Positions 13,012 through 50,452 of a DNA stretch of 64,000 nt are shown here, piece after piece (position 1 is the first letter of the stretch; the number at the start of each line of letters is the position of its first letter). The stretch is from an uncultured Candidatus Saccharibacteria bacterium. Lineage in GTDB: Bacteria > Patescibacteriota > Minisyncoccia > Phycocordibacterales > CAIRYW01. Where the stretch lies: positions 70,283 to 134,282 of the forward strand of contig CAYUPH010000001.1 in the NCBI GenBank assembly GCA_964446625.1. Reading direction: 5' to 3'. Made by a program: the position numbers and the translations under genes. Under the pieces are notes generated by a model, which saw nothing but the letters and a program-made list of their open reading frames with translations, ran no database searches and had not been told where the DNA came from.

Positions 13012-14541
13012 ATGTCATTAAAAATAGTATTCATGCTTCTAGCGGCTGCTGGAGTTGTTGGTGCTGCTCTCGGATACTTCATTCGATACCTTGTTGCTCT
13101 CAGCAAAAAAGGTTCGATTGAGCAGAATCTAAAGCAAGCAATGCTCGATGCTCAGGAAGAAGCAAAGAAAATCACTCTGAGCGCTGAACACGAAGCAGCA
13201 GAAATTCTCAAAACAGCGCGCGAAGATATTCGTGAAAAAGAAGAGAAGATCAAAAAGACTGAAGACAGATTGGTTGCAAAAGAAGAGCTTCTCGACAAGA
13301 GACAGACTGATATCGACAAAGAGGTTGATTCTCTCAAACTAAAAATTGAGGAAATCAAACAGAAAAAAGAAAAAGTGGACGGCATGGAAGCGACCAAAAT
13401 CGCTGAGCTTCAGAAAATTGCAAAACTTTCAGAAGAAGAAGCGCGACAAAAGCTTCTCCTTGATATCGAAAGAAAATACGAAGAGGATCTTGTTGTTCGG
13501 ATGAAAAAGATGGACACAACAAACCTTGAGAAACTCGAAACAAGAGCAAAAGAAATCCTCACGACTTCAATCCAAAGATTTGCTAACTCTGTGAGCGCAG
13601 ATGTTTTCACTACATCAATCACAATTCCTAGTGACGAACTGAAAGGAAAGATTATTGGAAAAGAAGGCCGAAATATAAAGGCTTTTGAAAGAGAGACAGG
13701 GGTTGAGATTATTGTCGACGACACACCAGGAACCATTACAATCTCATGCCACGATCCAATCCGAAGACAAGTTGCACGACTTGCGCTCGAAAACCTTATC
13801 CTCGATGGACGAATCCAACCAGCAAAGATTGAAAAGGAAGTAGAAAAGGCAAAAACAGAAATCAACAAAATCATCAAAGAAAAAGGAGAGCAAGCAACAT
13901 ACGAAACAGGTGTGTTCAATCTTGATCCTCGAGTTGTTGCAATTCTTGGACGACTCTACTTTAGAACAAGCTACGGACAAAATGTTCTTCAACACTCTGT
14001 TGAAATGGCTCATGTAGCAGGAATGATCGCTCAAGAAATTGGTGCAAACGTTCAAGTATCCAAAGCTGGTGCACTCCTCCATGATATTGGAAAAGCACTC
14101 GACCACGAAGTACAAGGAACACACGTCGAAATCGGACGAAGAATTCTGCAGAAGTTCGGAGTAAGCGAAGAAGTCGTAAAAGCAATGCAAGCTCACCACG
14201 AAGAATATCCTTACGAAACTCTAGAGTCACGAATTGTGCAGTCTGCCGATGCGATTTCAGGAAGTCGTCCTGGAGCTCGCCGAGATAGTGTCGAAAACTA
14301 TTTGAAGCGACTAGGAGACCTTGAAGCAATTGCAAACGGATTCAAAGGAATCGACAAGAGCTATGCGCTCCAGGCAGGACGAGAAATCCGTGTATTTGTA
14401 ACCCCCTCAGAAATTTCTGATCTTGAAGCAGCAAATATTGCTAGAGAGATTGCTCTAAAGATAGAAGCTGAACTAAAGTATCCTGGAGAAATCAAAGTCA
14501 CAGTGATACGAGAAAACAGAATCGTAGAATACGCAAGATAA
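13012..14541 (+). CDS. rny: Ribonuclease Y
   Basis: N-terminal TM, coiled coil, KH domain (GKIIGKEGRNIKAFE) and HD domain (LLHDIGKAL). Confidence 0.93.
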   Translation: MSLKIVFMLLAAAGVVGAALGYFIRYLVALSKKGSIEQNLKQAMLDAQEEAKKITLSAEHEAAEILKTAREDIREKEEKIKKTEDRLVAKEELLDKRQTDIDKEVDSLKLKIEEIKQKKEKVDGMEATKIAELQKIAKLSEEEARQKLLLDIERKYEEDLVVRMKKMDTTNLEKLETRAKEILTTSIQRFANSVSADVFTTSITIPSDELKGKIIGKEGRNIKAFERETGVEIIVDDTPGTITISCHDPIRRQVARLALENLILDGRIQPAKIEKEVEKAKTEINKIIKEKGEQATYETGVFNLDPRVVAILGRLYFRTSYGQNVLQHSVEMAHVAGMIAQEIGANVQVSKAGALLHDIGKALDHEVQGTHVEIGRRILQKFGVSEEVVKAMQAHHEEYPYETLESRIVQSADAISGSRPGARRDSVENYLKRLGDLEAIANGFKGIDKSYALQAGREIRVFVTPSEISDLEAANIAREIALKIEAELKYPGEIKVTVIRENRIVEYAR

Positions 14542-14652: not shown

Positions 14653-14925
14653 ATGAATAAGCAAGGAATTGTAGAAGTGGTTCATGGGATTCTCGGAAAC
14701 ACAAAGGTGCAAGCCGAGGGCGTTGTGGATGCCATCCTTGATTCTATCGTTAAAACCCTTAAAAAAGGTGACGAAGTATCAATCGCTGGACTTGGAATTT
14801 TCTCTGTAAAGGCTCGAGCAGCTCGAACAGCACGAAACCCAAGAACTGGTGAAATGGTAAAGGTAGCTGCAACTAAAGTACCTAAATTTAGAGCAGCAAA
14901 AGCGCTAAAGGACGCCGTAAAATAG
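14653..14925 (+). CDS. hup: DNA-binding protein HU
   Basis: 90 aa with the RNPRTGEMV arm motif and GLGIFSV. Confidence 0.93.
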   Translation: MNKQGIVEVVHGILGNTKVQAEGVVDAILDSIVKTLKKGDEVSIAGLGIFSVKARAARTARNPRTGEMVKVAATKVPKFRAAKALKDAVK

Positions 14926-14935
14926 TTTTAAAAAA

Positions 14936-14972
14936 CAAAAAGCCGGGGCTTTGCCCCGGCTTTTTGTTTTCC
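14936..14972. terminator. Bidirectional intrinsic terminator
   Basis: AAAAA-AAGCCGGGGC-ttt-GCCCCGGCTT-TTTGTTTT. Confidence 0.8.
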
Positions 14973-14977
14973 TTCTA

Positions 14978-15175
14978 TTAAGCAGTTCTTTCTTCTCTCT
15001 GGAGAACACTGTCGAGTACACTCCGTAAAGCATCCCTTTGCTCAGCACTTAAATCAAAAGCTCCCATTCCGATAGACGAGTCTTCATCTACTGTTTCCGG
15101 CTCAACATTCAGGTTTTTATTTTCACAAAATTCCATAAGAACCAATATTTTATCATAAACAAAAAATCCGCTCAA
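14978..15175 (-). CDS. Small hypothetical protein (65 aa); doubtful
   Basis: ORF only; no motif. Confidence 0.2.
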   Translation of the reverse strand: MSGFFVYDKILVLMEFCENKNLNVEPETVDEDSSIGMGAFDLSAEQRDALRSVLDSVLQREERTA

Positions 15176-15204
15176 TCAGGCTTCGATTCTCTTACGCAAG
15201 TGGT

Positions 15205-15412
15205 TTACACTTGCTTACCCCACAAACAAAAAGGGGTCTCTGGCCCTTTTTGTGTTTGTGGGAGGTAGAGTAATCGGTCACAAGTTACTAAGTCTCTTCG
15301 GGTGAGTACACCCTGCGGGGACTAAGTACTTGCGACCCCGACTCGGCTGCAGTTTTTTGTTACACAAAAAACTGGCTTCGCGCCTCCGTCTTTCGATTCT
15401 CTCTACCTCGCT
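15205..15412 (-). ncRNA. Candidate structured ncRNA (element A) downstream of tRNA-Gly(TCC), with termini that mimic or complement the tRNA 3' end, plus a terminal hairpin (GGGCCAGAGACCCC core)
   Basis: Read on the minus strand, the 5' box GCGAGGTAGAGAGAATCGAAAGACGGAGGCG is complementary to the T-arm/acceptor 3' strand of the adjacent tRNA. The 3' end CCGATTACTCTACCTCCCA mimics that tRNA 3' end. The termini can pair (11 bp, 1 mismatch) and enclose internal hairpins. Homologous to element B at 23622-23795. Confidence 0.45.
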
Positions 15413-15457
15413 ACAAAATTTAGTCGTAAAATGTTCTACATTTTACTTGTAATTTTG

Positions 15458-15528
15458 TGCGGGTAGAGAGAATCGAACTCTCGTCTTCTGCTTGGAAGGC
15501 AGACATTCTACCACTAAACCATACCCGC
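15458..15528 (-). tRNA. tRNA-Gly (anticodon TCC), no encoded CCA
   Basis: Manual fold: acceptor GCGGGTA/TACCCGC, anticodon stem TCTGC/GCAGA, loop CTTCCAA, T-arm GAGAG-TTCGATT-CTCTC, discriminator A. Confidence 0.88.
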
Positions 15529-15592
15529 TTTTATGTGAGACATCCTAGCATCTTTTTTACGCTGAGGCAAATTTCTTTGATATAATTTCACT

Positions 15593-16684
15593 ATGGAACT
15601 ACTAAAGTCAGGAATTTCGGGAACACTCATTTTTGTTCTCTCTTTTCTTGGCTGGAATGTAGAGGAAACAAAAACTCCTCTCCCCGAAACTCCCCCTGGA
15701 AAACAAAAAACTGAAAAGATTATCGAAACACCTGTCTTGCCAAAAAAACAGATTCCACCTCAGCCAAAGACTCCAGAGAAACCGTGGGTAGTACCAACAA
15801 AAACACTTCAAACAGAAACCCAAACTCCAGAACCCTTTACTAGAGCAGAAGAGGTAAATAAAGAAACAAACAGTAATTCAAAAAAGTATGACAAAGAAGC
15901 AGTTGCAAATATTCTTTGCGGAGAAAGAATTGGAAGCCAAATCAAATACCACACAGGGAGCGCTGTTGCAATTTCAAATGAAGGAGTTCTGATTACAAAT
16001 GCACACGTAGCCGAGTATGTACTCCTCTCAGAATTTGGAGGTAGCGACTTCTTTTGTGAAGTGAGAGCCGGGTCCCCCGCTTCTCCTGCTTACAAGGCAA
16101 AAATGCTTTTTATGCCGTCTCTTTGGATAAATGCAAACAAAAATAATTTAAAATATGATTCGCTTTCAGGAACTGGTGAAAATGATTACGCTCTCATCTA
16201 CCTTTCAGAAAAAACAAAAAACTCTACTTCTTCTCTTCTTCCTACAGAAATTAACTTATCTGGAATAACTAAAAATCAAAATATCTTTATCTCTGCCTAC
16301 CCTGCTGGTTTTTCAAGTACAAATATTCTTCTGTCTTCTCTAAGCAAAGCAAATACAAATTCAAAAATAAAAAGCATATGGCCACTTGGTAGCGCAAGAA
16401 GTGCAGTTTTTGATACCGAGCCAACACTCCTTGCAGCGGGAGGTGCGTCAGGAGGAGGAATTTTTGCTGGCTCTCAGCTTATTGGAATCATTGGTGCGGT
16501 TGTTATAGATAAAGAAACAACAAAACCTGCTATACGAGGAATTTCTCTTGAGTATATTTCTAATCAAATTAAAAGCGAAAGCGACAAAGAACTTTCTGAA
16601 TTTCTAAAAAATCCAGAAAGCACTGCGGGTAAATTTAAGTCTGATTTTGAGAAGTATACAAAAACCCTTCTTACAAACCGATAG
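15593..16684 (+). CDS. Trypsin-like (S1/Trypsin_2) serine protease, membrane-anchored with Pro/Thr-rich linker
   Basis: N-terminal TM, TNAHV (His), DYALI (Asp) and GASGGG (Ser) triad context. Confidence 0.6.
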   Translation: MELLKSGISGTLIFVLSFLGWNVEETKTPLPETPPGKQKTEKIIETPVLPKKQIPPQPKTPEKPWVVPTKTLQTETQTPEPFTRAEEVNKETNSNSKKYDKEAVANILCGERIGSQIKYHTGSAVAISNEGVLITNAHVAEYVLLSEFGGSDFFCEVRAGSPASPAYKAKMLFMPSLWINANKNNLKYDSLSGTGENDYALIYLSEKTKNSTSSLLPTEINLSGITKNQNIFISAYPAGFSSTNILLSSLSKANTNSKIKSIWPLGSARSAVFDTEPTLLAAGGASGGGIFAGSQLIGIIGAVVIDKETTKPAIRGISLEYISNQIKSESDKELSEFLKNPESTAGKFKSDFEKYTKTLLTNR

Positions 16685-16982
16685 ATTTTTTTGCAAATTC
16701 ATTTGCAATTTTTATGGCCGTCTCAAAATTGTCTTCAGAAACTAAAGTGTTCCGCCTTATGTGTCCGCACTTCTCGCACTTTTGAACCACAAAAAAATCC
16801 TGCCTGTCTTTTTGAACCTCTATAGGAATCATCATTCCCCCGCAATCTTCTGCTCTGTCCCCAGGATCTACATCGACATGTTTTGAATACAAACAATTCG
16901 GACAATGGTTAGTAAAACCGTTGCCTTTTACCTTTTCTCCGCAATGTTCGCACACAAAATCTTCGACAGTTTTTTTGAACAT
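16671..16982 (-). CDS. RNHCP-domain zinc-ribbon protein
   Basis: CEHCGEK...FTNHCPNC...CEKCGH Cys pairs. Start set at MFKKTVEDF (16982) because the longer track ORF would run through the upstream terminator hairpin. Confidence 0.55.
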   Translation of the reverse strand: MFKKTVEDFVCEHCGEKVKGNGFTNHCPNCLYSKHVDVDPGDRAEDCGGMMIPIEVQKDRQDFFVVQKCEKCGHIRRNTLVSEDNFETAIKIANEFAKKSIGL

Positions 16983-17001
16983 GTAATAAAATATATCATA
17001 A

Positions 17002-17048
17002 GTAATAAAATCAAAAATGGGTCGCGCCGGTCCGAAGACCTGCGCGAC
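17002..17048 (-). terminator. GC-rich intrinsic terminator ending the GC-rich island gene
   Basis: On the minus strand, GGGTCGCGCAGGTCTTCGGACCGGCGCGACCC is followed by ATTTTTGATTTTATT. Confidence 0.65.
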
Positions 17049-17056
17049 CCATCGAG

Positions 17057-18142
17057 TCACACTTTCCTAATTGCGCTGCAGGGAAACCTATCGCCCTCCC
17101 TACTCACCTGGAGAGCAATCACTTCCCCCGGATCGAAGTTGGGCAACAACCCGAGATTAAGCAGCTTTTTACCGCTCTCATCCTGCGCTTGCTGGTGATG
17201 AATGAGGGTAACTTCCCCTCTAAATTCCCCGTCTTCAATGACAGCCATGCCGGCTCCACCCAGCCACGGAAAATTGTAGAAGATAACCCTCGCCTTCACG
17301 AAGCCAGCATTGCGGAGTTCCTCCGAAACCGGGTCGAAGACCCCAAAACGATCTGTCCCCCCTGTTAGGAGTCGGCCCCAGTCAGCCCGGATAGCTTTCG
17401 AGAAGGGAATTGTGGCGTTATTTGCCACCGCCCACTTCAGGACCGCATCACCGAAGTTCTTCACATAATCCACTGTCGGAAATGCGTTTTCGTCCCGGGT
17501 TGGAACCGCAAAGACTGCATGATGTCCGCTCTGGTAATACTGCCTTCTTGCAGTGCGACAAATGGCAGGGTTCGTTCTTGTCACTTGTCCCCAGTATGTT
17601 TCCTGGAGGGTAACAAAAACCTTTCCTGCACAACCGAGGACGGACACCTCGATGTGAACAAATCTACCGTCAGTGCGAATCAGCACAAACGCAAGGTCTT
17701 TTTGGACCCCGCTTTTGTGTGCCTGGGGAATTTGGATCCCCCTAACGTCTTCCGCCCACTGGAGAGGGACACCGTAGTCCCCGAGCCGCAAAGGGTCGAC
17801 CTCAAGCAATCGAGATTGACCTGACTTGAATGCCCCCCGAAGTAGTGAAACCCCGAGCTTGGGGTTTGCCTGAAATCTGAGGTTTATCCCCCTAACGTTG
17901 GGAACAGCAGACACCTCCGACCACATGGATGTGGCAGAAAATGAACAATCTGTAAGCGAAGCGTTCTGGTCGGGTGAGCGGTTGTCCACCGCGACCTCGA
18001 ATTCTCCAAAGTCAGGGTGCACCCACTTCATCACCTGGTGAGTGGTGGAGAGGGGCACCCAGTTCGTAGAAGTCTCGCAAGGGACAGGAGGTTCACCTGC
18101 ATCAAGTCCTGCTTTGACAAGCAGGTCGTAAAGGTTGGTCAT
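17057..18142 (-). CDS. Hypothetical protein in an anomalously GC-rich (about 55-58% GC) gene; probable horizontal acquisition
   Basis: 361-aa ORF from MTNLYDLLVKAGLD. GC of 60-nt samples is 52-58%, against 32-38% in the flanks. No family recognised. Confidence 0.55.
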   Translation of the reverse strand: MTNLYDLLVKAGLDAGEPPVPCETSTNWVPLSTTHQVMKWVHPDFGEFEVAVDNRSPDQNASLTDCSFSATSMWSEVSAVPNVRGINLRFQANPKLGVSLLRGAFKSGQSRLLEVDPLRLGDYGVPLQWAEDVRGIQIPQAHKSGVQKDLAFVLIRTDGRFVHIEVSVLGCAGKVFVTLQETYWGQVTRTNPAICRTARRQYYQSGHHAVFAVPTRDENAFPTVDYVKNFGDAVLKWAVANNATIPFSKAIRADWGRLLTGGTDRFGVFDPVSEELRNAGFVKARVIFYNFPWLGGAGMAVIEDGEFRGEVTLIHHQQAQDESGKKLLNLGLLPNFDPGEVIALQVSREGDRFPCSAIRKV

Positions 18143-18375
18143 AATAGCAAAAGTGTGTCGAAGAACAAAATGCCGTAGGTTACGGCAGGAGGTTTTGGTA
18201 CGCAACGGCGCCCTAGCTCTCACAATTCTTCTAGCTTCCAAGCTAGTTGAACTTTCTTTCCGCAACACGGTTGAAACTTTTATATTATAACATAGTTTAT
18301 ATAAAAATCAAGTACGATTATATTAGTGATTTTCAGTCTATAAAATATCTTAAATATTGTGCTATGCTTTTATTT

Positions 18376-20598
18376 ATGGATGAAAGCTACAATTCACAAA
18401 AAATAGAACAAAAAGTTTTAGAATTATGGAATACTGCCAACTTCTTCAATCAAACTCCTAGTAATTCAAAACCAAATATTGGACTCTTCCTGACTCCTCC
18501 AAACGCCAGTGGAGCCATGCATACGGGAAATGCTTTAATGATTGCTATTCAAGACATAATTGCTCGATATTATCGCTCGCAAGGTAGCCCAACAGTTTGG
18601 ATTCCAGGCACAGACCATGGTGGCTATGAAACAGAAATAACTTTCGAAAAAGAATTTGAAAAACAAGGTTTTAAAAAAGACACTTTTTCAAAAAGAGAAA
18701 TTTTTAACAAGATTCATGATTTTGTTCACAGTAATAACAAACTTATTTATAACCAAATAAAGAGATTGGGTGCAAGCGTAGATTGGACAAAGGTTCGTTT
18801 TACAATGGATGATGATTTTTCTAAAAAAACCCAAGATGTTTTTAAGAAAATGGTTTCTGAAAACCTCATATCAAAGAAAAATGTAATGAATCATTTTTGT
18901 CCTGTCTGTTCCACAACACTTTCTGATATAGAACTAAAAGAGCAAAAAGGCGCAAATCAATATTTTATTAAATTCGATTTGATGGATTCAGAAAACGAAC
19001 AAGTCACTTTACTAGTAAAAAGGCCTGAATTTCTTTTTTCTGTCTCAAAAGTACTCGTTCACCCAAGTGATTCTATACACTCCTATTTAATTGGAAAAAA
19101 ACTTAGGAACCCACTTACAAAAGAGGAGATTCAAGTTATAGAAAGTGAGAGAAAGCATGATCCAGATAACACCTCACCTCTCACGCCTTTTTGTGACTCA
19201 TTCGTGAAGTATGACTACGAATACGCGCTTATGCGAAACATTCCTGTTTTTGGAAAGAATTTAATTGACCTAAAAGGTAAAATGAATTTTAGGCACATTG
19301 GAGATAGTACCCAAATTGCCAGAGAAAAAGATTTAAGTATCTTAAAAGCGGAAGGAAGATTAGTAGATACTATCTTTTCAGAGAACGAAAATATTTTTGT
19401 GTGTAAAAAAGGTCACGAAACGGAAACTTACTTAACCATGACATGGATTTTAGACCTAGATCATCCAAATCGCTCCTTAAAAAAAGAAGCTCTTTTGGCA
19501 TTAGAAGAAAACCCTCTCAATGTGGTGCCTAGCTGGAGAAAGAGAGAGATTATAAAATATATAGATTTAATGCGCGCTTGGCCAATCGCTCGTCAAAATG
19601 TATGGGGGATCTCTATCCCTGTTTGGTACGATATATCTTCTCCCTCAGATTTTGAAGTTTGGTTTGAGGATAAAAACAGAGAAAAACACAATGGTAATCT
19701 TGAAGAGTTACTGCGTAAGTATTCTCTTTCCGAAATCTCAGAAGGTCTGGAGAAAATTTATACTTCTAAAGAGAATAATTGGGTTTTTGAAAAAGAAAAC
19801 GGAAAAGAATACTTACCAGAAACAGATGTTTTTGACACATGGTTTTCTTCAGTTTGGTGGGGAATTTTTGTTTTCGAAAATATTTCTTCGTTTACAAAAG
19901 ATGACTTTTACCCTGCCCAAACTACTGTAACTGGAAGCGATTTAATTAGATTGTCTATTTCCAGAAAAATTGTACTCGGTTACTACCTTACAAGGAAGAT
20001 TCCGTTTAGCAATATTTGCTTTAACCCAATCATCAATGGTCCTGATGGAAACAAAATGAGCAAGAGTTATGGAAATGTCATTCCTCTTGAATCTTACCTA
20101 GATAAATACGGCACTGATATTACCCGTCTTTCCCTTGTATCATATACACGTGAAGGTAAGGATTTTAGTATCGAGCTTGAAACTCTCCAAAACTACAGTA
20201 GGTTCATGGATATTCTATGGAAAATGGGTAAAATAGCTGATATTGCAAAGAAATTTGCGCCAAACTTTAATAAAGCAATTTGTGTAGATAAATATTGCAA
20301 AAAGGTTATGGAAGATACTGCAGCTCTCGAGGAAAATGTGGGGAATAAAATAAAAAGTTTCAATTTAGCATATGCCCAAGAACTGGTGACTGGTTTTGTG
20401 TTGGATTTAGAAGAGTTTGCTAATTCTATTCAGACAAGTTCCACAAAGGAAGAATATCTATCGGTTTTTAAGTATGTGTTTGAAAAATATTTATTCATTC
20501 TTCATCCCTTCGCCCCTTTTGTAACTGAATATATCTATAATTCTATATATACGAAAGAAACACCACTTGCTTTACAAGCGAAAGTGGAAGCTATTTAG
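18376..20598 (+). CDS. valS: Class I aminoacyl-tRNA synthetase, most likely valine--tRNA ligase (short form)
   Basis: PPNASGAMHTGNAL (HIGH-region variant most similar to the ValRS PPNVTGSLHMGHAL) and KMSKS (KMSKSYGNV). Start uncertain (18364 or 18376); the track N-terminus from 18247 is spurious. Confidence 0.65.
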   Translation: MDESYNSQKIEQKVLELWNTANFFNQTPSNSKPNIGLFLTPPNASGAMHTGNALMIAIQDIIARYYRSQGSPTVWIPGTDHGGYETEITFEKEFEKQGFKKDTFSKREIFNKIHDFVHSNNKLIYNQIKRLGASVDWTKVRFTMDDDFSKKTQDVFKKMVSENLISKKNVMNHFCPVCSTTLSDIELKEQKGANQYFIKFDLMDSENEQVTLLVKRPEFLFSVSKVLVHPSDSIHSYLIGKKLRNPLTKEEIQVIESERKHDPDNTSPLTPFCDSFVKYDYEYALMRNIPVFGKNLIDLKGKMNFRHIGDSTQIAREKDLSILKAEGRLVDTIFSENENIFVCKKGHETETYLTMTWILDLDHPNRSLKKEALLALEENPLNVVPSWRKREIIKYIDLMRAWPIARQNVWGISIPVWYDISSPSDFEVWFEDKNREKHNGNLEELLRKYSLSEISEGLEKIYTSKENNWVFEKENGKEYLPETDVFDTWFSSVWWGIFVFENISSFTKDDFYPAQTTVTGSDLIRLSISRKIVLGYYLTRKIPFSNICFNPIINGPDGNKMSKSYGNVIPLESYLDKYGTDITRLSLVSYTREGKDFSIELETLQNYSRFMDILWKMGKIADIAKKFAPNFNKAICVDKYCKKVMEDTAALEENVGNKIKSFNLAYAQELVTGFVLDLEEFANSIQTSSTKEEYLSVFKYVFEKYLFILHPFAPFVTEYIYNSIYTKETPLALQAKVEAI

Positions 20599-21890
20599 TT
20601 TCTTCTATCTTCATATAAAGCAAGAACTGAAAGATACGCATATAACATATGACTAGGAATATAATGCACCTTCTTGTAAGTCGCTGGCCCAAATGAAAGC
20701 CCTTCTACATCAAAATCAAAAATCGGACCTGCTCCATCACTTCTATATTCAGGCATTAAAAAGCTGTACTCCTGCTTTGATTCATGTCTTCTTCTTAAGA
20801 CTTCGGCACAGATTATTAGGGTCTTAAGAAAGTAAATCTCCCCCGCGGGCCGTCTTAGATCATTCATCACCGAATTTCTTGATTCGATTATTCTTCTATA
20901 TATATTAGACCTTTTTAGACCTCTTATATACCCCAGATCAATTTCTATATTACTAATTTCTTTTTCTATATTTTCTTTTTCTTTTTCCAGTTCTTTTCTA
21001 TTTTCTTGGAGAGCTCTATACTCAGACCCTAATTCTGTTGAAATAGCAAAATCAATTGAACTCAAATCAAATTCTCTATAGTACTGAAATGAATCAGTCC
21101 TCCTTAATGCGGCAACAAAAGTAAGGTTTTCACCTAGCATGCCCCCAACAACTTTTGAATCAATATTAATCTCACCCTTATATCCACCAAGAATCTTTCT
21201 AATATTATCTACAACAATTGCTTTTGCCTCTTCAAAGACTTTTCTACTCTCTTCTGCGTTATGGAAAAGCTCGGTATCAATTTTATCAGTTTGAAGTCTT
21301 TTGCTTTTAATTTCTGAAGTACAAAACTTTTCTTTTTCACCTGATGATAATCGACTTTGAAACTCATCTGCCTTTGTAAATAGAGACCCAAGCTTTTCTG
21401 CACTAATTGTATTTACATTTTCATGAGACGGCTTCTCTTTAATTTTTGCCAACTGATTTACCAAAAAGCATGCCGTTGCAAGATAATCTGATGGTTTAAT
21501 ATTTTGATCATCATATTCTGGAGAATCAAGAAATCCACCTTTCATCATCCAATTTTCAAAATATTTTATCGCAATCGAAACAATTGTTTGTTCTTTTTCA
21601 TTTAAATCCTCACCAGTCTCCGATCGTGTAACAAAGTTTCGAAGCAGATTACCCAAAGGGACCAATTCGCCAGGAAAAGCTTCGTCATTTTTTTTAAGAA
21701 AGTTAACAAAGGCGTCTACCCTCTCGACTGTCAATTCTTCAGAAAATAATTCCCCTACTTCCTCTTTAAGTGTATTCACCCCACCAGACAGATCTTCTAC
21801 AAAATGTCTCACAACCTTTAACCTTTCTTCTTTAGGAAGTTCATCTTTTGCAGCAATCAAAAAATCTTTAATATCTCGTTTTTCAAACAT
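20595..21890 (-). CDS. Hypothetical protein (431 aa), no recognisable domain
   Basis: Long ORF, AT-rich, in 4-nt overlap with the valS end. Confidence 0.5.
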   Translation of the reverse strand: MFEKRDIKDFLIAAKDELPKEERLKVVRHFVEDLSGGVNTLKEEVGELFSEELTVERVDAFVNFLKKNDEAFPGELVPLGNLLRNFVTRSETGEDLNEKEQTIVSIAIKYFENWMMKGGFLDSPEYDDQNIKPSDYLATACFLVNQLAKIKEKPSHENVNTISAEKLGSLFTKADEFQSRLSSGEKEKFCTSEIKSKRLQTDKIDTELFHNAEESRKVFEEAKAIVVDNIRKILGGYKGEINIDSKVVGGMLGENLTFVAALRRTDSFQYYREFDLSSIDFAISTELGSEYRALQENRKELEKEKENIEKEISNIEIDLGYIRGLKRSNIYRRIIESRNSVMNDLRRPAGEIYFLKTLIICAEVLRRRHESKQEYSFLMPEYRSDGAGPIFDFDVEGLSFGPATYKKVHYIPSHMLYAYLSVLALYEDRRN

Positions 21891-21921
21891 AAAAGGAATT
21901 ATATCATTCCTCTATACTATT

Positions 21922-22668
21922 TTATATTTTAACGGCTTCCACGAGCATAAAAAGTGGAATCTCTTTTCGAGCTTTGTCTTCAGCACTCTGCCTTGGGCCC
22001 TTCTGACTCTTTCGGTCTGAAATCCACTCTTCAAGTTTTGTCACCGCAAAACCTGCCTTAGACAAACTTTTTACATAACTTTGTAGTGGTCTATGAAAAG
22101 AAATTGTTTGAGCGCTTCCCTTCTTTCCTGGATTCATCACAATATCAAAAGTCCTTTCTGACATATAAGTCGCTACTTTTCGGTATTGCTTTCCTGTTTC
22201 TGCATCGAATCCCCAGTCGCTTTCTTTTGGAATTCTGAAAGCTGGGTGATTAAGGACAAACACAAACCTCCCTTTGTCTTTTAAGACGCGAGCAACCTCA
22301 GAAATAACCTTTTGCATGTCCTTTATATTTTGTAAGGCTAGTACACAGACAGCAACATCAAATTTCCCTGGAGGAAAAGGTAACTTTTCGGCTGATGAAA
22401 CTTTAAATAGTCCATCTTTGTTCCCCATTTTAGCAATTTCTACTAGCTCTGGAGATATATCTACCCCTGTTACACGTGAACCAGCTTTCAAAAAAGCAGC
22501 AGAAAAGAATCCTTGTCCGCATGCAAGGTCTAGTATTTCTTTACCCTTATCTGGTGAAACTACCCTAAGAAGATTAGGTAGAATCACAGTATTTTGATAC
22601 GAATTATCTCCTTCTACTAAGGTATCGTACCAAGTTGCTACCTTTCCCCAAGAAGTTGTTTTTTTCAC
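21922..22668 (-). CDS. Class I SAM-dependent methyltransferase
   Basis: Motif I ILDLACGQGFFS and the DVAVCVLALQN region (Methyltransf_11/25-like). Confidence 0.8.
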   Translation of the reverse strand: MKKTTSWGKVATWYDTLVEGDNSYQNTVILPNLLRVVSPDKGKEILDLACGQGFFSAAFLKAGSRVTGVDISPELVEIAKMGNKDGLFKVSSAEKLPFPPGKFDVAVCVLALQNIKDMQKVISEVARVLKDKGRFVFVLNHPAFRIPKESDWGFDAETGKQYRKVATYMSERTFDIVMNPGKKGSAQTISFHRPLQSYVKSLSKAGFAVTKLEEWISDRKSQKGPRQSAEDKARKEIPLFMLVEAVKI

Positions 22669-22748
22669 GTGAAACTATTGTAATTAGTAAATATATCCCT
22701 AAGGACTGTTACCACCGTAGCAAATGCAGATTTGCTACTGTATCCTGG

Positions 22749-22820
22749 TCGGAGTACTGGGATTCGAACCCAGACTGAACGCTCCCAAAGCGTTTATGCT
22801 AGCCGTTACACCATACTCCG
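22749..22820 (-). tRNA. tRNA-Pro (anticodon TGG); CCA appears genomically encoded (extends to 22746)
   Basis: Acceptor CGGAGTA/TACTCCG, anticodon stem AACGC/GCGTT, loop TTTGGGA, T-arm CTGGG-TTCGAAT-CCCAG, then ACCA. Confidence 0.85.
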
Positions 22821-22896
22821 ATTATTTTATTTTACCACTTCTAACGCACTCGTTTTGAACACAAATAAATATAACACAAAGAATACAAAAACAAAA

Positions 22897-23286
22897 TTAT
22901 TCAAAGATTATATTGGGTATATAAGTCACTTTTGCTTTTTTTGTGTTTTCATCTACAAGCACTGAACATACATCGATCTGCCAATCCTCCTTAACCTTGT
23001 ACTCGATCAGGAACATTTGAATAACTCTAGAAAGCTTAAGAAACTTTTCACGAGAAACATTCTCCTCTGGTCTAAACCAATCGCTTTCACGTGAAACCCT
23101 CACTAAGTTGTTACACGCAAATGTTTTTACCTCTACAAAATGCCATTTTCTTCCTTTCCGAGCAACTATATCTATTTCACCCGATTTTCTTAGAAAGTTT
23201 CTCGTGAAAACATTATACCCATGTTTCTTAAGAAACATAGTAGCAATATCTTCTCCTAATATTCCTATTTCGTTATGTTTTGCCAT
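22897..23286 (-). CDS. YraN/UPF0102 family endonuclease-like protein
   Basis: GEIDIVA...HFVEVK motifs. Start chosen at MAKHNEIG (23286). Confidence 0.7.
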   Translation of the reverse strand: MAKHNEIGILGEDIATMFLKKHGYNVFTRNFLRKSGEIDIVARKGRKWHFVEVKTFACNNLVRVSRESDWFRPEENVSREKFLKLSRVIQMFLIEYKVKEDWQIDVCSVLVDENTKKAKVTYIPNIIFE

Positions 23287-23621
23287 TTTAAATAGTAAAT
23301 AGTGTTTCTTGTGAAAACTTTTATGGCTAAAGTATAGCACAAACACTTAAGTGTTTCTTATGAAACATATTATTTAACTCTTTTTTACTTAAAATACTCT
23401 GTCTTTTAAAAAAAGACTTGTATTATATAGGTTTTATAGAAAATAGTGCTTTTAGACTTTACAAAAAGACAAAAGGACAGTAGGGGAGTTGTACACTTAT
23501 CCCCTTAGTTATCCACAGTTTTATAGAAAATCTATATTTTATGAGTGGAAAAGTTGGGATATTTGTCTTATATATTAGGGACAAATTAAGAAAAAATGCA
23601 TTAAAAGACATTACTTAATAA

Positions 23622-23648
23622 AAAACAGGGCTCTGACCCTGTTTTTTC
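23622..23648. terminator. Bidirectional intrinsic terminator (GGGTCAGAGCCC core) ending element B
   Basis: AAAACAGGGCTCTGACCCTGTTTTTT. Confidence 0.75.
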
Positions 23649-23795
23649 TTGTGCAGGTAAGGAGAATCGGCCACGGTTTATGGCTAAATTACTCGCGAAA
23701 CTCTAATTGTAGCTCATAACCCCGGCCCGGACTCAGCGACAAGCACTCGCCCTCCTCGTCTTGTGTACCGCCTCCGTCTTTCGATTCTTCTTACC
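23641..23795 (-). ncRNA. Candidate structured ncRNA (element B) downstream of tRNA-Gly(GCC); homolog of element A
   Basis: A 20-nt exact direct copy of the tRNA 3' end plus flank (TTGTGCAGGTAAGGAGAATCG) is at 23641-23660. An inverted copy (CGATTCTTCTTACCT) is at 23776-23795. It shares the box GAATCGAAAGACGGAGGCG with element A. The termini pair over 15 bp with 1 mismatch. Confidence 0.45.
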
Positions 23796-23844
23796 TAAAT
23801 TCAAAATATAGGCGCAAATTATACATAATTTGCTTTTTATTTTG

Positions 23845-23915
23845 TGCAGGTAAGGAGAATCGAACTCCTGTCTCATCCTTGGCAAGGACGTGTCCTACCA
23901 CTAAACGATACCTGC
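23845..23915 (-). tRNA. tRNA-Gly (anticodon GCC), no encoded CCA
   Basis: Acceptor GCAGGTA/TACCTGC, anticodon stem CGTCC/GGATG, loop TTGCCAA, T-arm AGGAG-TTCGATT-CTCCT. Confidence 0.88.
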
Positions 23916-23960
23916 TTGATTAACAATTAGTATTCTAGACTATTTGAGGGAAGATGACAA

Positions 23961-23992
23961 ACAAAAAACCTGCGGAAGTGCAGGTTTTTTGA
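23961..23992. terminator. Bidirectional intrinsic terminator downstream of tRNA-Arg
   Basis: AAAAAA-CCTGC-ggaagt-GCAGG-TTTTTT. Confidence 0.7.
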
Positions 23993-24137
23993 GCGAATAT
24001 GTGGTCCCAAATAATTTCCTCACCCATGTTCGGAAATTTTTGTGACCTCGGCTCGCTTGTTTATACTGAAGTAAAAACATAGCTCCGCCTTGCACAAGTC
24101 TCGTAAAATCCAAAGCAGTTTGGATTTTACTCGCTAG

Positions 24138-24209
24138 TGCACCCGTCAGGACTCGAACCTGAAATAACGGTTCCGAAGACCGGTGTGATATCCATTTCAC
24201 TACGGGTGC
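24138..24209 (-). tRNA. tRNA-Arg (anticodon TCG), no encoded CCA
   Basis: Acceptor GCACCCG/CGGGTGC, D-stem GTGA/TCAC, anticodon loop CTTCGGA, T-arm TCAGG-TTCGAGT-CCTGA. One C/T mismatch at the top of the anticodon stem. Confidence 0.8.
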
Positions 24210-24269
24210 AGTTTCTAAACTATACTAGAAAATTATGGGAAAATCAAAATCTATACTAGAATTTAGGTA

Positions 24270-28416: not shown

Positions 28417-28516
28417 AAGGAAATTATACCATGTCGCACAATAAAGTGTGGGTCTATAGCTGGGGAAATAGGAAAAGCTTGCGTTTTTAGCCTTTTTGTG
28501 ATAGCATACTCCCACA

Positions 28517-28792: not shown

Positions 28793-28886
28793 TACCCTGG
28801 TTTCACTTTTATTTTTATAATTTGTAAGCTTTTATAAGTTTTATTTTTTAATTTTGCAGGCACAGATGTGCCTGGCTAACCATTTT

Positions 28887-50445: not shown

Positions 50446-50452
50446 TAACTTT

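What the first reader, a model, noticed from the sequence alone, without database searches (positions are those of the whole stretch)
15205..15528. tRNA-Gly(TCC) with a downstream structured element whose ends complement and mimic the tRNA 3' end
Directly downstream of the minus-strand tRNA-Gly(TCC) lies a roughly 155-nt element. Read in tRNA orientation it starts with GCGAGGTAGAGAGAATCGAAAGACGGAGGCG, the near-exact reverse complement of the tRNA's own T-arm/acceptor 3' strand. It ends with CCGATTACTCTACCTCCCA, which mimics the tRNA's T-loop, acceptor 3' strand and discriminator A. The two ends can pair (11 bp with 1 mismatch plus 5 bp). It contains three internal hairpins. It is followed by a hairpin with the core GGGCCAGAGACCCC. 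A homologous element with the same architecture follows tRNA-Gly(GCC) 8 kb away. In each locus the tRNA-like boxes co-vary with that locus's own tRNA (CTCTCTACC here, CTCCTTACC there), while the internal box AGAATCGAAAGACGGAGGCG is identical in both. This is not expected for random spacer. Candidate interpretations are below. (i) A tRNA-linked small RNA with a tRNA-like minihelix end; this resembles the bacterial Y RNA (YrlA)-like architecture only in having paired 5' and 3' termini and a tRNA-like module, and no Ro (rsr) gene is visible here. (ii) A cis-acting processing or termination device for the tRNA-Gly transcripts. (iii) att-site remnants (direct repeat of the tRNA 3' end) of a tiny or decayed integrative element.
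Basis: seen in the sequence. Interest (0 to 1): 0.7.

Follow-up and report, generated by a model that had tools for sequence, protein, structure and literature searches.

The report
tRNA-tail-copying structured repeat of CPR bacteria
Behind many tRNA genes of the tiny "candidate phyla radiation" bacteria sits a conserved, gene-less, folded ~150-base element whose two ends are an antisense and a sense copy of that tRNA's own tail. I found no description of it, and it may be a new kind of tRNA-riding genetic parasite or tRNA-linked RNA.

Summary
The two elements behind tRNA-Gly(TCC) and tRNA-Gly(GCC) belong to a family. A weak CM match (14.4 bits) behind tRNA-Arg(TCG) looks like a decayed third copy.

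I recovered the family in about 50 Patescibacteria (CPR) genomes: 78 covariance-model hits. In the fetched loci it lies behind 56 of 93 tRNA or tmRNA genes, but those loci were picked for carrying an element. It is always on the tRNA strand, starting about 39 nt after the gene. It has no Rfam match, no viral hit and no literature hit.

**Anatomy**
- trailer hairpin T1
- X', antisense to the local tRNA from the T-loop to position 72
- a conserved three-way-junction core with clear covariation
- X, a copy of tRNA positions 56-73

Both arms match the cognate tRNA far better than other tRNAs (0 of 5000 permutations reach the observed match).

**Behaviour**
- Tandem arrays and decayed orphan copies occur.
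- The same orthologous site is empty in some genomes and occupied in others.
- Copies within one genome share genome-specific features, in a mosaic pattern.

**Best reading (confidence about 0.4).** It is an ORF-less selfish repeat living in tRNA 3' trailers, with arms re-templated from the neighbouring tRNA gene. Its function and its mode of spread are inferred, not shown.

**Rivals.** A cis-acting tRNA maturation switch, a tRNA-like small RNA, a miniature integrase element, or a T-loop intron-like ribozyme.

The parts
15457..15528 (-). tRNA-Gly(TCC), host gene of copy 1. T54 = 15477, C56 = 15475, discriminator A73 = 15458. No encoded CCA.
   Evidence: ARAGORN. Rfam tRNA, 75.6 bits.
15413..15456 (-). 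T1, the trailer hairpin between the tRNA and the element. It is AT-rich and is not called terminator-like here.
   Evidence: Sequence. Terminator scan. It forms the tip of the long X-T1-X' hairpin in the full-transcript fold.
15392..15411 (-). X', the 5' arm GCGAGGTAGAGAGAATCGAA. It is antisense to tRNA positions 54-72; 16 of 17 positions match over 56-72, with one inserted A.
15277..15391 (-). Conserved three-way-junction core. J1/2 is AAA. P2 is 15340-15390, built as GAC/GUC, then a GGA/GA loop, then GGC/GCC, then a variable hairpin. J2/3 is GGG. P3 is 15277-15337 and ends GUGAC-C.
   Evidence: CM hit, 104.3 bits, E = 2.6e-24. Covariation.
15259..15276 (-). X, the 3' arm CGATTACTCTACCTCCCA. 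It is a diverged copy of tRNA positions 56-73 (14 of 17 match).
15218..15258 (-). T2, a G+C-rich hairpin followed by a T run. It lies directly after the 3' arm, and its stem also pairs with the last 4 nt of the arm.
   Evidence: The scan flags 15229-15251, on the + strand only. Fold.
15168..15214 (-). Second, core-less module. It consists of the hairpin GCAAGTG..CACTTGC, an X'-like GTAAGAGAATCGAA, and then GCCTGATTGAGCGG. It reads as a truncated second repeat unit.
   Evidence: The 14-mer GAAGCCYGATTGAG recurs in the same context in L005 and L016.
23844..23915 (-). tRNA-Gly(GCC), host gene of copy 2. It has its own promoter-like site at 23960-23932.
23797..23843 (-). T1 of copy 2, an AT-rich hairpin GCAAATTAT..ATAATTTGC. 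It is not called terminator-like.
23780..23796 (-). X' of copy 2, AGGTAAGAAGAATCGAA. It is antisense to tRNA positions 54-70 with one mismatch.
23670..23779 (-). Core of copy 2. Its P2 is of the 'GUAYACAAGACGAG' subtype.
   Evidence: CM hit, 113.8 bits, E = 1e-26.
23652..23669 (-). X of copy 2, an exact 18-nt copy of tRNA positions 56-73. The direct repeat extends imperfectly to 28 nt (26 identical).
23617..23651 (-). T2 of copy 2, CAGGGTCAGAGCCCTG followed by a T run.
23988..24112 (-). Probable third, degenerate copy behind tRNA-Arg(TCG) (24137-24209). The core AAGGCGGAG...CGAGCCGAGGUCAC...GGAC is recognisable. Both arms have decayed. It is followed by a terminator at 23962-23991.
   Evidence: CM hit, 14.4 bits: E = 0.14 over the whole window, and E = 0.00058 when only this 271-nt region is searched. 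Terminator. tRNA-Arg(TCG) genes in L035, L047 and L048 carry well-preserved copies.

Best explanation
These are copies of an uncatalogued, ORF-less, multi-copy structured repeat confined to Patescibacteria (CPR). It lives in the 3' trailer of tRNA and tmRNA genes.

Each unit has four parts, in this order:
1. The trailer hairpin T1.
2. X', an antisense copy of the host RNA's T-loop, T-stem 3' strand and acceptor 3' strand.
3. A conserved three-way-junction core: AAAG-N-CGGAG ... CGAG-N'-C-SGGG ... GUGAC-C.
4. X, a sense copy of host positions 56-73. X is often present but dispensable.

I think it is most likely a selfish, non-autonomous element that persists and multiplies at tRNA 3' ends.
- The universal T-loop sequence flanks the core on both sides, as antisense GAAUCGAA and sense CGAUUC. 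This supplies the microhomology for unequal crossover or slippage with the tRNA's own T-loop.
- That recombination creates the X copy together with duplicated trailer hairpins and tandem arrays.
- Hairpin (quasi-palindrome) templating across T1 keeps X' complementary to the immovable tRNA sequence.
- Gene conversion homogenises the cores within a genome.
- Read-through from the tRNA promoter would make an RNA whose X':X helix rebuilds the acceptor/T-arm 'top half'. The same helix would keep the antisense arm from unfolding the upstream tRNA.

Shown: the family, its structure and strand, its position, the tRNA-specific arms, the tandem and decayed forms, presence/absence at one orthologous site, and within-genome mosaic similarity.

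Inferred: that it is transcribed, the recombination and templating steps, and that it is selfish rather than useful to the host.
For: Family and restriction to CPR:
- An exact 19-mer scan of 185,579 species genomes gave 62 loci. 53 are in CPR lineages and carry the full architecture; the other 9 are chance hits inside unrelated, mostly coding, sequence.
- There are no hits in viral contigs.
- There are 78 CM hits with E < 0.001.

Position:
- 56 of 79 CM hits (the 78 plus the weak tRNA-Arg(TCG) hit in the window) have a tRNA or tmRNA directly upstream on the same strand. The median gap is 39 nt (interquartile range 38-41). None is in the opposite orientation.
- Hosts are Glu, Gly, Leu, Arg, His, Trp, Ser, Val, Phe and Pro tRNAs, plus tmRNA.

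Structure:
- 78.8% of cells are paired, against 31-44% when the partners are slid. 18 pairs show double changes.
- The P3 base pairs covary: UA 29, GC 9, CG 6 at one pair and AU 27, GC 16, CG 5 at another.
- The middle pair of P2a switches among A-U, G-C, C-G and U-A in divergent members.
- G-U pairs outnumber A-C, and one conserved G-U pair fixes the structure on the tRNA-sense strand.

Arms:
- Both arms match the cognate tRNA far better than other tRNAs.
- They follow T-loop variants such as CGAGUC and CAAGUC; the antisense arm also follows CAAAUC.
- X is a perfect 17/17 copy in 19 of 43 copies and decayed in the rest.
- X' follows the tRNA even where X has decayed.

Duplicative behaviour:
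- Direct repeats are mostly 18-22 nt, but reach 55-129 nt in L046, L048 and L043. In those loci whole X-T1-X'-core units are repeated.
- Truncated second units occur in the window, L045 and L065.
- Orphan copies sit next to what look like decayed pseudo-tRNAs.

Optional presence:
- At the orthologous ClpP / RNase Y / HU / tRNA-Gly / small-ORF site, L064 and L066 are empty. There the tRNA's CCA abuts the ORF.
- The same site is occupied in the window, L063 and L065.

Concerted evolution:
- Four copies in one genome sit at Glu, Gly, Arg and Leu tRNAs. All four share a genome-specific P2, but P3 is mosaic.
- Similarity between them begins at the anti-T-loop and ends at CCGATTC.

No linked enzyme:
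- The units are 110-190 nt and have no ORF.
- No reverse transcriptase or transposase was found among the 50 window ORFs scanned. There is one Xer-like recombinase, 3.6 kb away.
Against: - No transposition event was caught. The youngest-looking copies (L046, L043, L048) are in-situ tandem duplications, so how the core first reaches a new tRNA species is unexplained.
- Near-exact conservation of about 19 nt of core across CPR classes would also fit a host function or catalysis. The degree of conservation is inflated, though, because the search key was that exact 19-mer.
- G-U-compatible substitutions in X' (for example L010) hint at selection on RNA pairing rather than pure DNA templating.
- T1 looks like a good terminator in about 40% of loci, while T2 rarely does. 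Transcription of the element is therefore uncertain.
- Gene conversion alone could explain the within-genome similarity without any mobility.
Confidence: 0.4

Rival explanations
1. Cis-acting RNA switch in the tRNA precursor. X' can pair either with the tRNA's own 3' half, extending T1 into a hairpin of about 40 bp, or with the downstream copy X. On read-through transcripts the element would then decide one of three things: whether the upstream tRNA folds and is matured, whether the transcript becomes a long double-stranded RNase III-type substrate and is discarded, or whether the tRNA body is completed by the distal X.
For: - The minimum-free-energy folds of both full window transcripts put the tRNA's X in a hairpin with X'. 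They pair the tRNA 5' part with the distal arm, fully in copy 2 and partly in copy 1. The z-scores are -12.0 and -7.4.
- On average X' is more complementary to the tRNA than to the 3' arm: 13.9 versus 12.6 of 17. It stays so when the arm has decayed.
- Wobble-type changes in X' and an excess of G-U over A-C pairs.
- Element-bearing tRNA genes rarely encode CCA: 3 of 55, against 10 of 40 other tRNA genes.
- In the window T1 is weak and T2 is strong.
Against: - Orthologous tRNA-Gly genes work without it.
- Many copies are decayed or are orphans.
- In many loci T1 is a strong terminator that would stop transcription before X'.
- A perfect X' tends to go with a decayed arm. This is the opposite of what a rescue-by-distal-X switch predicts.
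- Nothing here explains the conserved purine-rich core.
Confidence: 0.18
2. A trans-acting tRNA-like small RNA, the reader's option (i). The element would be cut out of the tRNA precursor by RNase P at the 5' end of X' and by RNase Z or the CCA-adding enzyme at the end of X, because its closing helix is the acceptor/T-arm top half. The conserved junction would bind a conserved CPR protein or another RNA.
For: - The closing helix P1 (X' paired with X) equals the acceptor stem (7 bp), plus the T stem (5 bp), plus the paired T-loop.
- The direct repeat ends exactly at the discriminator, plus 0-3 nt, in most perfect copies.
- A recurrent unpaired A sits just 5' of the first arm nucleotide (TTTTGTA|GCGGG-type junctions). 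This resembles an RNase P -1 position.
- The core is conserved and covaries.
Against: - The terminal pairs 1:72 and 2:71 form in only 16 and 21 of 48 copies.
- The 3' arm is missing or decayed in more than half of copies.
- There are about as many copies as half the tRNA genes. That is unusual for a trans-acting housekeeping RNA.
- There are empty orthologous sites.
- There is no Rfam match to YrlA/Y RNA, tmRNA or 6S RNA.
Confidence: 0.15
3. A miniature integrative element, or an att-site relic, mobilised in trans by a tyrosine recombinase that targets the T-loop/3' end of tRNA and tmRNA genes. The folded X'-core-X would act as a single-stranded attP that mimics the double-stranded target, as in CTX-phi or integron attC.
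For: - Direct repeats start in the T-loop at C56 and run to the tRNA end, typically 18-22 nt.
- tmRNA is also a host.
- The structure is strand-specific and single-stranded.
- The same site is found both occupied and empty, and recombination between the repeats could restore the empty form precisely.
- A Xer-like recombinase gene lies in the window at 27502-28548.
Against: - No integrase lies inside or next to any unit.
- Very similar cores in one genome sit at four different tRNA species with locally matched arms. A fixed attP would instead produce chimeric, non-functional tRNAs.
- The core sequence is conserved, unlike the loop regions of attC or of the CTX hairpin.
- No copy was found on viral contigs.
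- Long repeats (55-129 nt) and half-units look like unequal crossover, not site-specific exchange.
Confidence: 0.12
4. An intron-like ribozyme inserted in the T-loop at position 55/56, carrying a spare 3' exon. The core, guided by X', would perform reversible cleavage and ligation at the N|C56 junction of whichever X it pairs with. It would excise the unit X-T1-X'-core, possibly as a circular RNA, and join the tRNA body to the distal X.
For: - Both junctions lie at the same T-loop position, next to the three-way junction. There is no linker between P3 and the 3' strand of the closing helix P1 (X' paired with X).
- The unpaired junction nucleotides are invariant and purine-rich.
- The predicted full-length fold is a tRNA with the unit nested in its T-loop.
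- Tandem units resemble the multimeric precursors of small circular RNAs.
- A precedent exists for ribozymes placed behind tRNAs in phages: theta ribozymes (bioRxiv 10.1101/2023.06.13.544163, found).
Against: - The proximal X always completes a normal tRNA. I found no locus where the tRNA depends on the distal X.
- There is no match to any Rfam ribozyme or intron family.
- T1 is often a terminator inside the putative intron.
- The 3' arm is frequently decayed.
- No bulge-helix-bulge motif can be drawn at the junctions (my inspection).
Confidence: 0.07

Closest known systems
attL/attR repeats of genomic islands and prophages integrated by P4-type tyrosine integrases at tRNA/tmRNA gene 3' ends (my knowledge; Williams 2002, Nucleic Acids Res 30:866)
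   Same: - The direct repeat starts in the T-loop and runs to the 3' end of the gene, about 17-24 nt.
- tmRNA genes are hosts as well as tRNA genes.
- The upstream tRNA gene stays intact.
   Different: - The insert is only 110-190 nt and has no integrase or cargo.
- It carries an additional antisense copy of the same segment.
- One core type serves more than 20 tRNA species, with arms matched to each.
- It forms tandem half-units.
MITE/REP/PATE-type ORF-less bacterial repeats
   Same: - Small, multi-copy and structured.
- Intergenic, and often at terminators.
- Present or absent at orthologous sites.
- Copies range from intact to decayed.
   Different: - The terminal inverted repeat is not a fixed element sequence. 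It is copied from the neighbouring gene and differs at every locus.
- Position and orientation relative to one class of host gene are strict.
- No partner transposase is known.
Retroviral/LTR-retrotransposon primer-binding site (PBS)
   Same: A stretch of about 18 nt antisense to the 3' end of a specific tRNA. In retroelements this stretch is re-copied from the tRNA and so tracks the tRNA that is used.
   Different: - Here the antisense stretch covers positions 54-72 without the CCA.
- It lies next to the tRNA gene itself.
- No reverse transcriptase is linked to it.
Folded single-strand att sites (CTX-phi attP hairpin; integron attC)
   Same: An imperfect stem, formed on one specific strand, rebuilds a double-stranded copy of the recombination target, with a branched or variable region at its tip.
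   Different: - Those sites have little conserved loop sequence and depend on XerCD or IntI.
- Here the branched core is the most conserved part.
- The 'target' changes with each tRNA.
Theta (minimal HDV-like) ribozymes behind phage tRNAs, and 3'-ETS-derived small RNAs of tRNA operons
   Same: Structured RNAs encoded immediately downstream of tRNA genes and released from the same precursor.
   Different: - There is no HDV-like double pseudoknot and no Rfam match.
- The element is separated from the tRNA by a hairpin.
- Its arms copy the tRNA.
Bacterial Y-RNA-like YrlA and other tRNA-like modules
   Same: Paired 5' and 3' termini and a tRNA-derived module.
   Different: - No match to the YrlA model.
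- No T-arm or D-arm mimic; the T-loop is base-paired instead.
- No rsr gene is apparent among the window ORFs scanned.
- Tens of copies per genome would be implied, rather than one.

Membership tests
Any Rfam 15 family (including tRNA-like, YrlA/Y RNA, tmRNA, 6S, group I/II introns, HDV-like, hammerhead, twister, pistol, hatchet, T-box) | Scores at or above the family's gathering threshold, or at least gives a consistent sub-threshold match over the element. | tested here: not met
   The gathering-threshold search of the whole window finds only the 4 tRNAs. An E <= 10 search of 14800-25000 gives no consistent match at either element, only scattered high-E-value miRNA/CRISPR-repeat noise that touches them.
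Conserved structured RNA (or single-strand DNA) motif | Homologues in distinct lineages whose predicted helices are kept by compensatory changes. | tested here: met
   78 hits in about 50 CPR genomes. 18 pairs show double changes, and 78.8% of cells are paired against 31-44% when the partners are slid. P2a and P3 covary.
Conserved structured RNA (or single-strand DNA) motif | Evidence that the motif is transcribed, with defined ends. | not testable with these tools
   No transcriptome data were available. No promoter-like site was found between the tRNA and the element. T1 is terminator-like in 20 of 48 loci.
Integrase-mobilised integrative element at a tRNA gene | Direct repeat of the tRNA 3' end flanking the insert, with an intact tRNA at one side. 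| tested here: met
   The repeat is a perfect 17/17 copy in 19 of 43 copies. Repeat length peaks at 18-22 nt, starting at C56.
Integrase-mobilised integrative element at a tRNA gene | A recombinase gene within or adjacent to the insert. | tested here: not met
   The units are 110-190 nt and have no ORF. The nearest tyrosine recombinase in the window is 3.6 kb away and resembles a Xer-type recombinase (N-terminal SAM-like domain plus catalytic domain).
Integrase-mobilised integrative element at a tRNA gene | One attP specificity per element lineage (one target tRNA). | tested here: not met
   Very similar cores in one genome sit at tRNA-Glu, Gly, Arg and Leu, each with locally matched arms.
MITE / non-autonomous transposon | Fixed terminal inverted repeats belonging to the element. 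| tested here: not met
   The inverted ends change with the host tRNA, including the T-loop variants CGAGTC, CAAGTC and CAAATC.
MITE / non-autonomous transposon | Multi-copy, with presence/absence polymorphism at orthologous sites. | tested here: met
   2 clear copies plus 1 weak third match in 64 kb. 56 of 93 tRNA/tmRNA genes in the fetched loci are occupied. L064 and L066 are empty where the window, L063 and L065 are occupied.
MITE / non-autonomous transposon | A cognate transposase exists elsewhere in the genome. | not tested
   Only 64 kb of this genome could be read. No transposase or reverse transcriptase domain was found in the 50 ORFs scanned.
tRNA intron (group I, or archaeal bulge-helix-bulge type) | Interrupts the tRNA, so that the mature tRNA needs splicing. 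| tested here: not met
   ARAGORN finds complete tRNAs upstream in all 56 cases. Orphan copies have no matching 5' half upstream.
Retron ncRNA (msr-msd) | An adjacent reverse transcriptase gene. | tested here: not met
   Downstream of copy 1 is a conserved small ORF of 64-71 aa with no Pfam match. Downstream of copy 2 is a UPF0102 gene.
tRNA-like RNase P / RNase Z / CCA-enzyme substrate (top-half minihelix) | A paired acceptor-like end (1:72, 2:71, 3:70) followed by a discriminator. | tested here: inconclusive
   By design the helix is acceptor stem plus T stem. However, the 1:72, 2:71 and 3:70 pairs form in only 16, 21 and 32 of 48 copies in an ungapped register.

The most novel reading that the evidence does not exclude
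The unit would be an RNA-level machine specific to its own tRNA. The antisense arm docks either the tRNA's 3' half or the spare copy at the same place on a conserved three-way-junction catalytic core. That core then performs reversible cleavage and ligation at the U55|C56-type junction. In effect it would be a new small ribozyme class acting as a T-loop 'intron with a spare exon', or as an RNA recombinase, possibly releasing a circular RNA of about 190 nt. A related reading is a tRNA-specific folding and maturation switch built into about half of all tRNA transcription units of CPR bacteria.
Probability: 0.15. Interest if true: 0.95.

Novelty: new variant of a known kind. Interest (0 to 1): 0.8.

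Why it matters
CPR/Patescibacteria make up a large share of bacterial diversity and have very small genomes. Even so, roughly half of the tRNA and tmRNA genes in the loci I sampled carry this 110-190-nt structured unit. That sample was chosen for carrying an element, so the fraction is biased upward.

If the element is selfish, it is a new way for ORF-less DNA to persist. It would borrow the universal T-loop as its recombination handle and re-tailor its ends to each essential host gene. This would help explain the intergenic content of CPR genomes and the evolution of their tRNA loci, including the loss of encoded CCA and the gain of terminators.

If it acts as RNA, it would be a phylum-wide layer of tRNA-specific control, or a new ribozyme. 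It would also give a directly testable handle on tRNA maturation in organisms that cannot yet be grown alone.

In either case it is a well-defined candidate for Rfam and for annotation pipelines. Those pipelines currently leave these regions blank.

Tried and rejected
- **Rfam.** The gathering-threshold search and the E <= 10 search gave nothing at the elements.
- **Viral contigs.** The exact 19-mer gave 0 hits.
- **Literature.** Seven full-text searches, including one for the motif string itself, found no description. They turned up only group I introns at position 35/36 of CPR tRNAs (PMC13011429) and theta ribozymes behind phage tRNAs. Both are different things.
- **Non-CPR hits.** The 19-mer hits in Haloferacaceae, Acidobacteriota, Fibrobacter and others are chance matches inside unrelated, mostly coding, sequence and do not fit the model.
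- **Split or interrupted tRNA.** Rejected. The proximal copy always completes the tRNA, and orphan copies have no matching 5' half.
- **Bulge-helix-bulge intron, hammerhead, hairpin or HDV-like folds.** By inspection, the junction strands and the order of helices do not fit. In addition, the covariation at the middle pair of P2a contradicts a hairpin-ribozyme loop A.
- **Retroviral-type primer-binding site.** No complement of CCA precedes X'.
- **Shine-Dalgarno reading of GGAGG.** Not conserved in divergent members.
- **GANTC methylation sites.** Not conserved either.
- **Resemblance of AGUCCGGG to RNase P helix P4.** Only 8 nt, and it varies between subtypes, so I treat it as coincidence.
- **Fixed-length target-site duplication.** Repeat lengths of 55-129 nt and half-units argue for unequal crossover instead.
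- **RNA versus single-strand DNA from loop types.** GCGAAGC-type loops also occur in ordinary terminators here, so they are uninformative.
- **My terminator detector.** It requires perfect stems and misses the obvious T2 hairpins of the window. Its counts are therefore only a rough trend.
Full report
**1. The observation**

Read on the minus strand, tRNA-Gly(TCC) occupies 15457-15528. The following parts come after it:
- a 44-nt AT-rich hairpin, which I call T1;
- the stretch GCGAGGTAGAGAGAATCGAA (15392-15411), which is the reverse complement of the tRNA from T54 to C72 apart from one inserted A;
- a structured interior that begins AAGACGGAGGCG;
- CGATTACTCTACCTCCCA (15259-15276), a diverged copy of tRNA positions 56-73;
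- a G+C-rich hairpin with a T run (15229-15251).

The layout is the same 8 kb away behind tRNA-Gly(GCC), 23844-23915. There the 3' arm (23652-23669) is an exact copy of that tRNA's positions 56-73.

The 20-mer AGAATCGAAAGACGGAGGCG occurs exactly twice in the window, against 0.01 expected. Both elements fold much better than shuffled sequence, with z = -6.45 and -4.09. Rfam finds nothing there, even at E <= 10.

**2. It is a family, and it is restricted to CPR bacteria**

I scanned one genome from each of 185,579 prokaryotic species for the 19-mer GAATCGAAAGACGGAGGCG. This returned 62 loci.
- 53 loci are from Patescibacteria: Saccharibacteria, Parcubacteria/Paceibacteria, Kaiserbacteria, Zambryskiibacteria, Campbellbacteria and others. 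All 53 show the same architecture.
- The other 9 hits lie inside unrelated, mostly coding, sequence of other phyla and do not fit the model.
- IMG/VR viral contigs have no hit.

RNase Y homologues place the window's own genome among the Paceibacteria/Taylorbacteria-like Parcubacteria.

I built a covariance model from 48 copies. It finds 78 matches with E < 0.001 in the window plus 53 loci, including many copies that lack the exact 19-mer.

The model also gives a weak third match in the window, behind tRNA-Arg(TCG) at 23988-24112. It scores 14.4 bits. The E-value is 0.14 over the whole window and 0.00058 when only that region is searched. The core AAGGCGGAG...CGAGCC...GGUCAC...GGAC is recognisable, but both arms have decayed.

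**3. Position**

Of 79 CM hits (the 78 plus that weak third match), 56 have a tRNA or tmRNA gene directly upstream on the same strand. The gap to the model start has a median of 39 nt and an interquartile range of 38-41. No hit lies next to a tRNA in the opposite orientation.

The remaining hits fall into three groups:
- copies cut by contig ends;
- second units of tandem arrays;
- orphans whose upstream sequence looks like a decayed tRNA 3' end.

The hosts are tRNA-Glu, Gly, Leu, Arg, His, Trp, Ser, Val, Phe and Pro, plus one tmRNA gene.

In the fetched loci, 56 of 93 tRNA/tmRNA genes carry a model-detectable copy. This sample is biased, because each locus was fetched for one exact-19-mer copy, and that 19-mer requires a TTCGATTC T-loop. 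Many of the 'empty' tRNAs still carry an X-T1-X' hairpin followed by a reduced or different core.

**4. Structure**

The consensus is a three-way junction:
- **P1**, the closing helix, pairs X' with X. Its inner 6-7 bp, GAAUCG/CGAUUC, are almost invariant.
- **J1/2** is AAA.
- **P2** has a 3-bp base G-N-C/G-N'-C, then a conserved GGA/GA internal loop (CGGAG opposite CGAG), then GGCG/CGCC, and then a variable hairpin of three recognisable subtypes.
- **J2/3** is SGG.
- **P3** has a base of the GGUC../..GACC or GGGG../..CCCC type and a variable tip. It runs straight into the 3' strand of P1 without a linker.

On the 48-sequence alignment, 78.8% of cells are paired, against 31-44% when the partners are slid by 1-3 columns. 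18 pairs show changes on both sides. Covariation exceeds all 500 shuffles.

The P3 base pairs switch: UA 29, GC 9, CG 6 at one pair and AU 27, GC 16, CG 5 at another. In divergent members the middle pair of P2a switches among A-U, G-C, C-G and U-A, while CGGAG and CGAG stay fixed.

G-U pairs outnumber A-C: 78 versus 32 in P3, and 82 versus 51 in the outer part of P1. One G-U pair is conserved in 33 sequences. The selected structure is therefore on the tRNA-sense strand, as RNA or as single-stranded DNA.

**5. The arms are tailored to the neighbouring gene**

For 43 copies with an upstream tRNA, I compared the 17 nt from C56 in three sequences: the tRNA, the reverse complement of X', and the 3' arm.
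- Both arms follow T-loop variants such as CGAGUC and CAAGUC, not only the stems; the antisense arm also follows CAAAUC. So even the 'invariant' GAAUCG is host-derived.
- Over the distal 11 nt, the cognate match is 7.9 for X' and 8.8 for X, against 5.9 and 6.0 for non-cognate tRNAs. None of 5000 permutations reaches the observed values.
- The 3' arm is bimodal. It is a perfect 17/17 copy in 19 of 43 copies and decayed (8-14 of 17) in most of the others.
- X' is rarely perfect (3 of 43, mean 13.9). However, it stays closer to the tRNA than to the arm whenever the arm has decayed.

The relation between X' and the tRNA is therefore the more persistent one, and the 3' arm is dispensable.

In the perfect copies the direct repeat usually ends at the discriminator plus 0-3 nt, giving 18-22 nt. 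In L046, L048 and L043 it extends over 55-129 nt, covering the trailer hairpin, the next X' and, in L043, part of a second core. L043 carries two full X-T1-X'-core units in tandem. L045, L048, L065 and the window (15168-15214) carry a truncated second unit.

**6. Optional presence and concerted evolution**

I used RNase Y homologues to fetch the orthologous ClpP / RNase Y / HU / tRNA-Gly / small-ORF / trypsin-like neighbourhood from four related genomes.
- **L064 and L066** have an empty site. The tRNA ends in an encoded CCA, and the small ORF starts 3-5 nt later, with no hairpin in between.
- **L065** has a unit with a short spacer. Its arm includes the CCA, and a partial second unit follows.
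- **L063** has a strong T1, an X' split by an inserted hairpin, a reduced core and a good arm.
- **The window** has the full unit plus a core-less second module.

The element, together with its hairpins, is therefore gained or lost on the timescale over which RNase Y diverges by about 20%.

Element-bearing tRNA genes rarely encode CCA: 3 of 55, against 10 of 40 others.

Within one metagenome-assembled genome (KR13_S3.mb.34; loci L046 and L048), copies at tRNA-Glu, Gly, Arg and Leu share a genome-specific P2 variant. The Glu and Gly copies also share P3, while the Arg copy has a different P3. Similarity between the copies starts at the anti-T-loop and ends at CCGATTC. The trailer hairpins and the arms are local to each site. 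This mosaic pattern indicates gene conversion, intragenomic copying, or both.

**7. What I think it is**

The units are ORF-less, and no enzyme gene is linked to them. Among 50 window ORFs scanned I found one Xer-like tyrosine recombinase 3.6 kb away, and no reverse transcriptase or transposase.

The combination of features points to a selfish repeat of the tRNA 3' trailer:
- multi-copy and optional;
- decaying in many places;
- prone to tandem duplication;
- homogenised within genomes;
- tied to the tRNA-type 3' end shared by tRNA and tmRNA genes, which includes the T-loop.

The most economical account of the arms needs no dedicated enzyme.
- The core is bracketed by T-loop sequence in both orientations.
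- Slippage or unequal crossover between the tRNA's CGATTC and the core's terminal CGATTC would produce exactly the X copy, the duplicated hairpins and the tandem or half units that are seen.
- Template switching across the T1 palindrome is an established mutational process at quasi-palindromes (my knowledge). It would keep correcting X' towards the complement of the tRNA, which selection holds fixed.

What this account does not explain is how a core first reaches a new tRNA species. I found no fresh transposition event. I put this reading at about 0.4.

**8. Rivals**

- **Cis-acting switch.** Whole-transcript folds place the tRNA's own X in a long hairpin with X' and complete the tRNA body with the distal arm. 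Some X' substitutions are wobble-compatible. However, empty orthologous sites, decayed copies and frequent strong T1 terminators (a crude detector) argue against a required role. Confidence 0.18.
- **Trans-acting tRNA-like RNA processed by RNase P and RNase Z.** The design of the closing helix P1 (acceptor stem plus T stem) is attractive. But the terminal pairs form in only a minority of copies, and the arm is often gone. Confidence 0.15.
- **Integrase-mobilised mini-element.** It fits the repeats and the tmRNA host. It does not fit one core type serving many tRNA species with matched arms. Confidence 0.12.
- **T-loop intron-like ribozyme with a spare exon.** This is the most exciting reading not excluded. 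It has no positive evidence beyond geometry and the invariant junction purines, and no tRNA depends on the distal copy. Confidence 0.07.

**9. Novelty**

I found no Rfam family. I also found no paper in 7.7 million PMC articles and 0.34 million preprints, including a search for the motif string itself.

The nearest known things are:
- att repeats of tRNA-integrated islands;
- MITE/REP repeats;
- the retroviral primer-binding site;
- folded single-strand att sites;
- ribozymes or small RNAs encoded behind tRNAs.

Each shares one feature and fails on others; see the membership table. I file the element as a new variant of a known kind, namely ORF-less repeats at tRNA 3' ends. A minority reading would make it categorically new.

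Noticed in passing
window 23988-24112 (-), behind tRNA-Arg(TCG) 24137-24209: A probable third, degenerate member of the same family. It has a recognisable core and decayed arms, and is followed by a strong terminator at 23962-23991.
   Followed up: yes
window 15168-15214 (-); also L005:1916-1929 and L016:239-252: A recurrent core-less module. A tRNA-antisense stretch ending ...GAATCGAA runs directly into GCCYGATTGAG, so the exact 14-mer GAAGCCYGATTGAG occurs in three unrelated genomes. In the window its TTGAGC doubles as the -35 of a promoter-like site in front of the small ORF.
   Followed up: partly
L010, about 1905-2035 (minus strand), right after the first element: A different structured core (GGAGAGGGGUCGGGAGAGGAUAAUCCUCUCCC...) is also bracketed by a perfect antisense copy and a sense copy of the tRNA-Glu 3' end. 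Other variant cores follow X' in L030 (Tyr), L034 (Arg, Gly), L008 and L044 (GAATCGAACGGCGGAGTATG type). The 'tRNA-tail bracket' may therefore be more general than this one family.
   Followed up: partly
L008, L034 and L035, downstream of tRNA-Pro(TGG): tRNA-Pro is followed, after about 50-65 nt, by a direct repeat of its whole T-arm plus acceptor 3' strand, about 25-30 nt (nearly exact in L008 and L035, diverged in L034). There is no family core in between. This looks like a different insertion type at another sub-site of the tRNA.
   Followed up: no
window about 14978-15140 (-); L064:6182-6376; L066:5938-6153; L065:6063-6209: A conserved acidic small ORF (about 48-71 aa as called, no Pfam match) lies immediately downstream of tRNA-Gly. 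In genomes without the element it starts 3-5 nt after the tRNA's CCA, which implies a tRNA-mRNA co-transcript.
   Followed up: partly
fetched loci in general: tRNA genes carrying the element almost never encode CCA (3 of 55). About a quarter of the other tRNA genes do (10 of 40). The trailer nearly always begins CA after the discriminator.
   Followed up: partly
window 24270-25745 (+), 13012-14541 (+), 29719-31818 (+), 28854-29519 (+): Several RNA-processing genes lie near the tRNA loci: the CCA-adding enzyme (divergent from tRNA-Arg), RNase Y, PNPase and a NYN-domain nuclease. This is probably ordinary synteny, but it is relevant if the element is processed.
   Followed up: no
window 27502-28548 (-): A tyrosine recombinase with an N-terminal SAM-like domain (Xer-like). 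It is the only recombinase found among the ORFs scanned.
   Followed up: no
window about 49900-58200 (+): A cluster with PrgI-like and TraG/VirB4-like P-loop proteins and several large ORFs without Pfam matches. It resembles a type IV secretion or conjugation-type locus.
   Followed up: no
many loci: Hairpin loops of the GCGAAGC / GC-GNA-GC type are very frequent in P2, P3 and the trailer hairpins. A TTTTGTAG junction with an unpaired A recurs at the T1/X' boundary.
   Followed up: no
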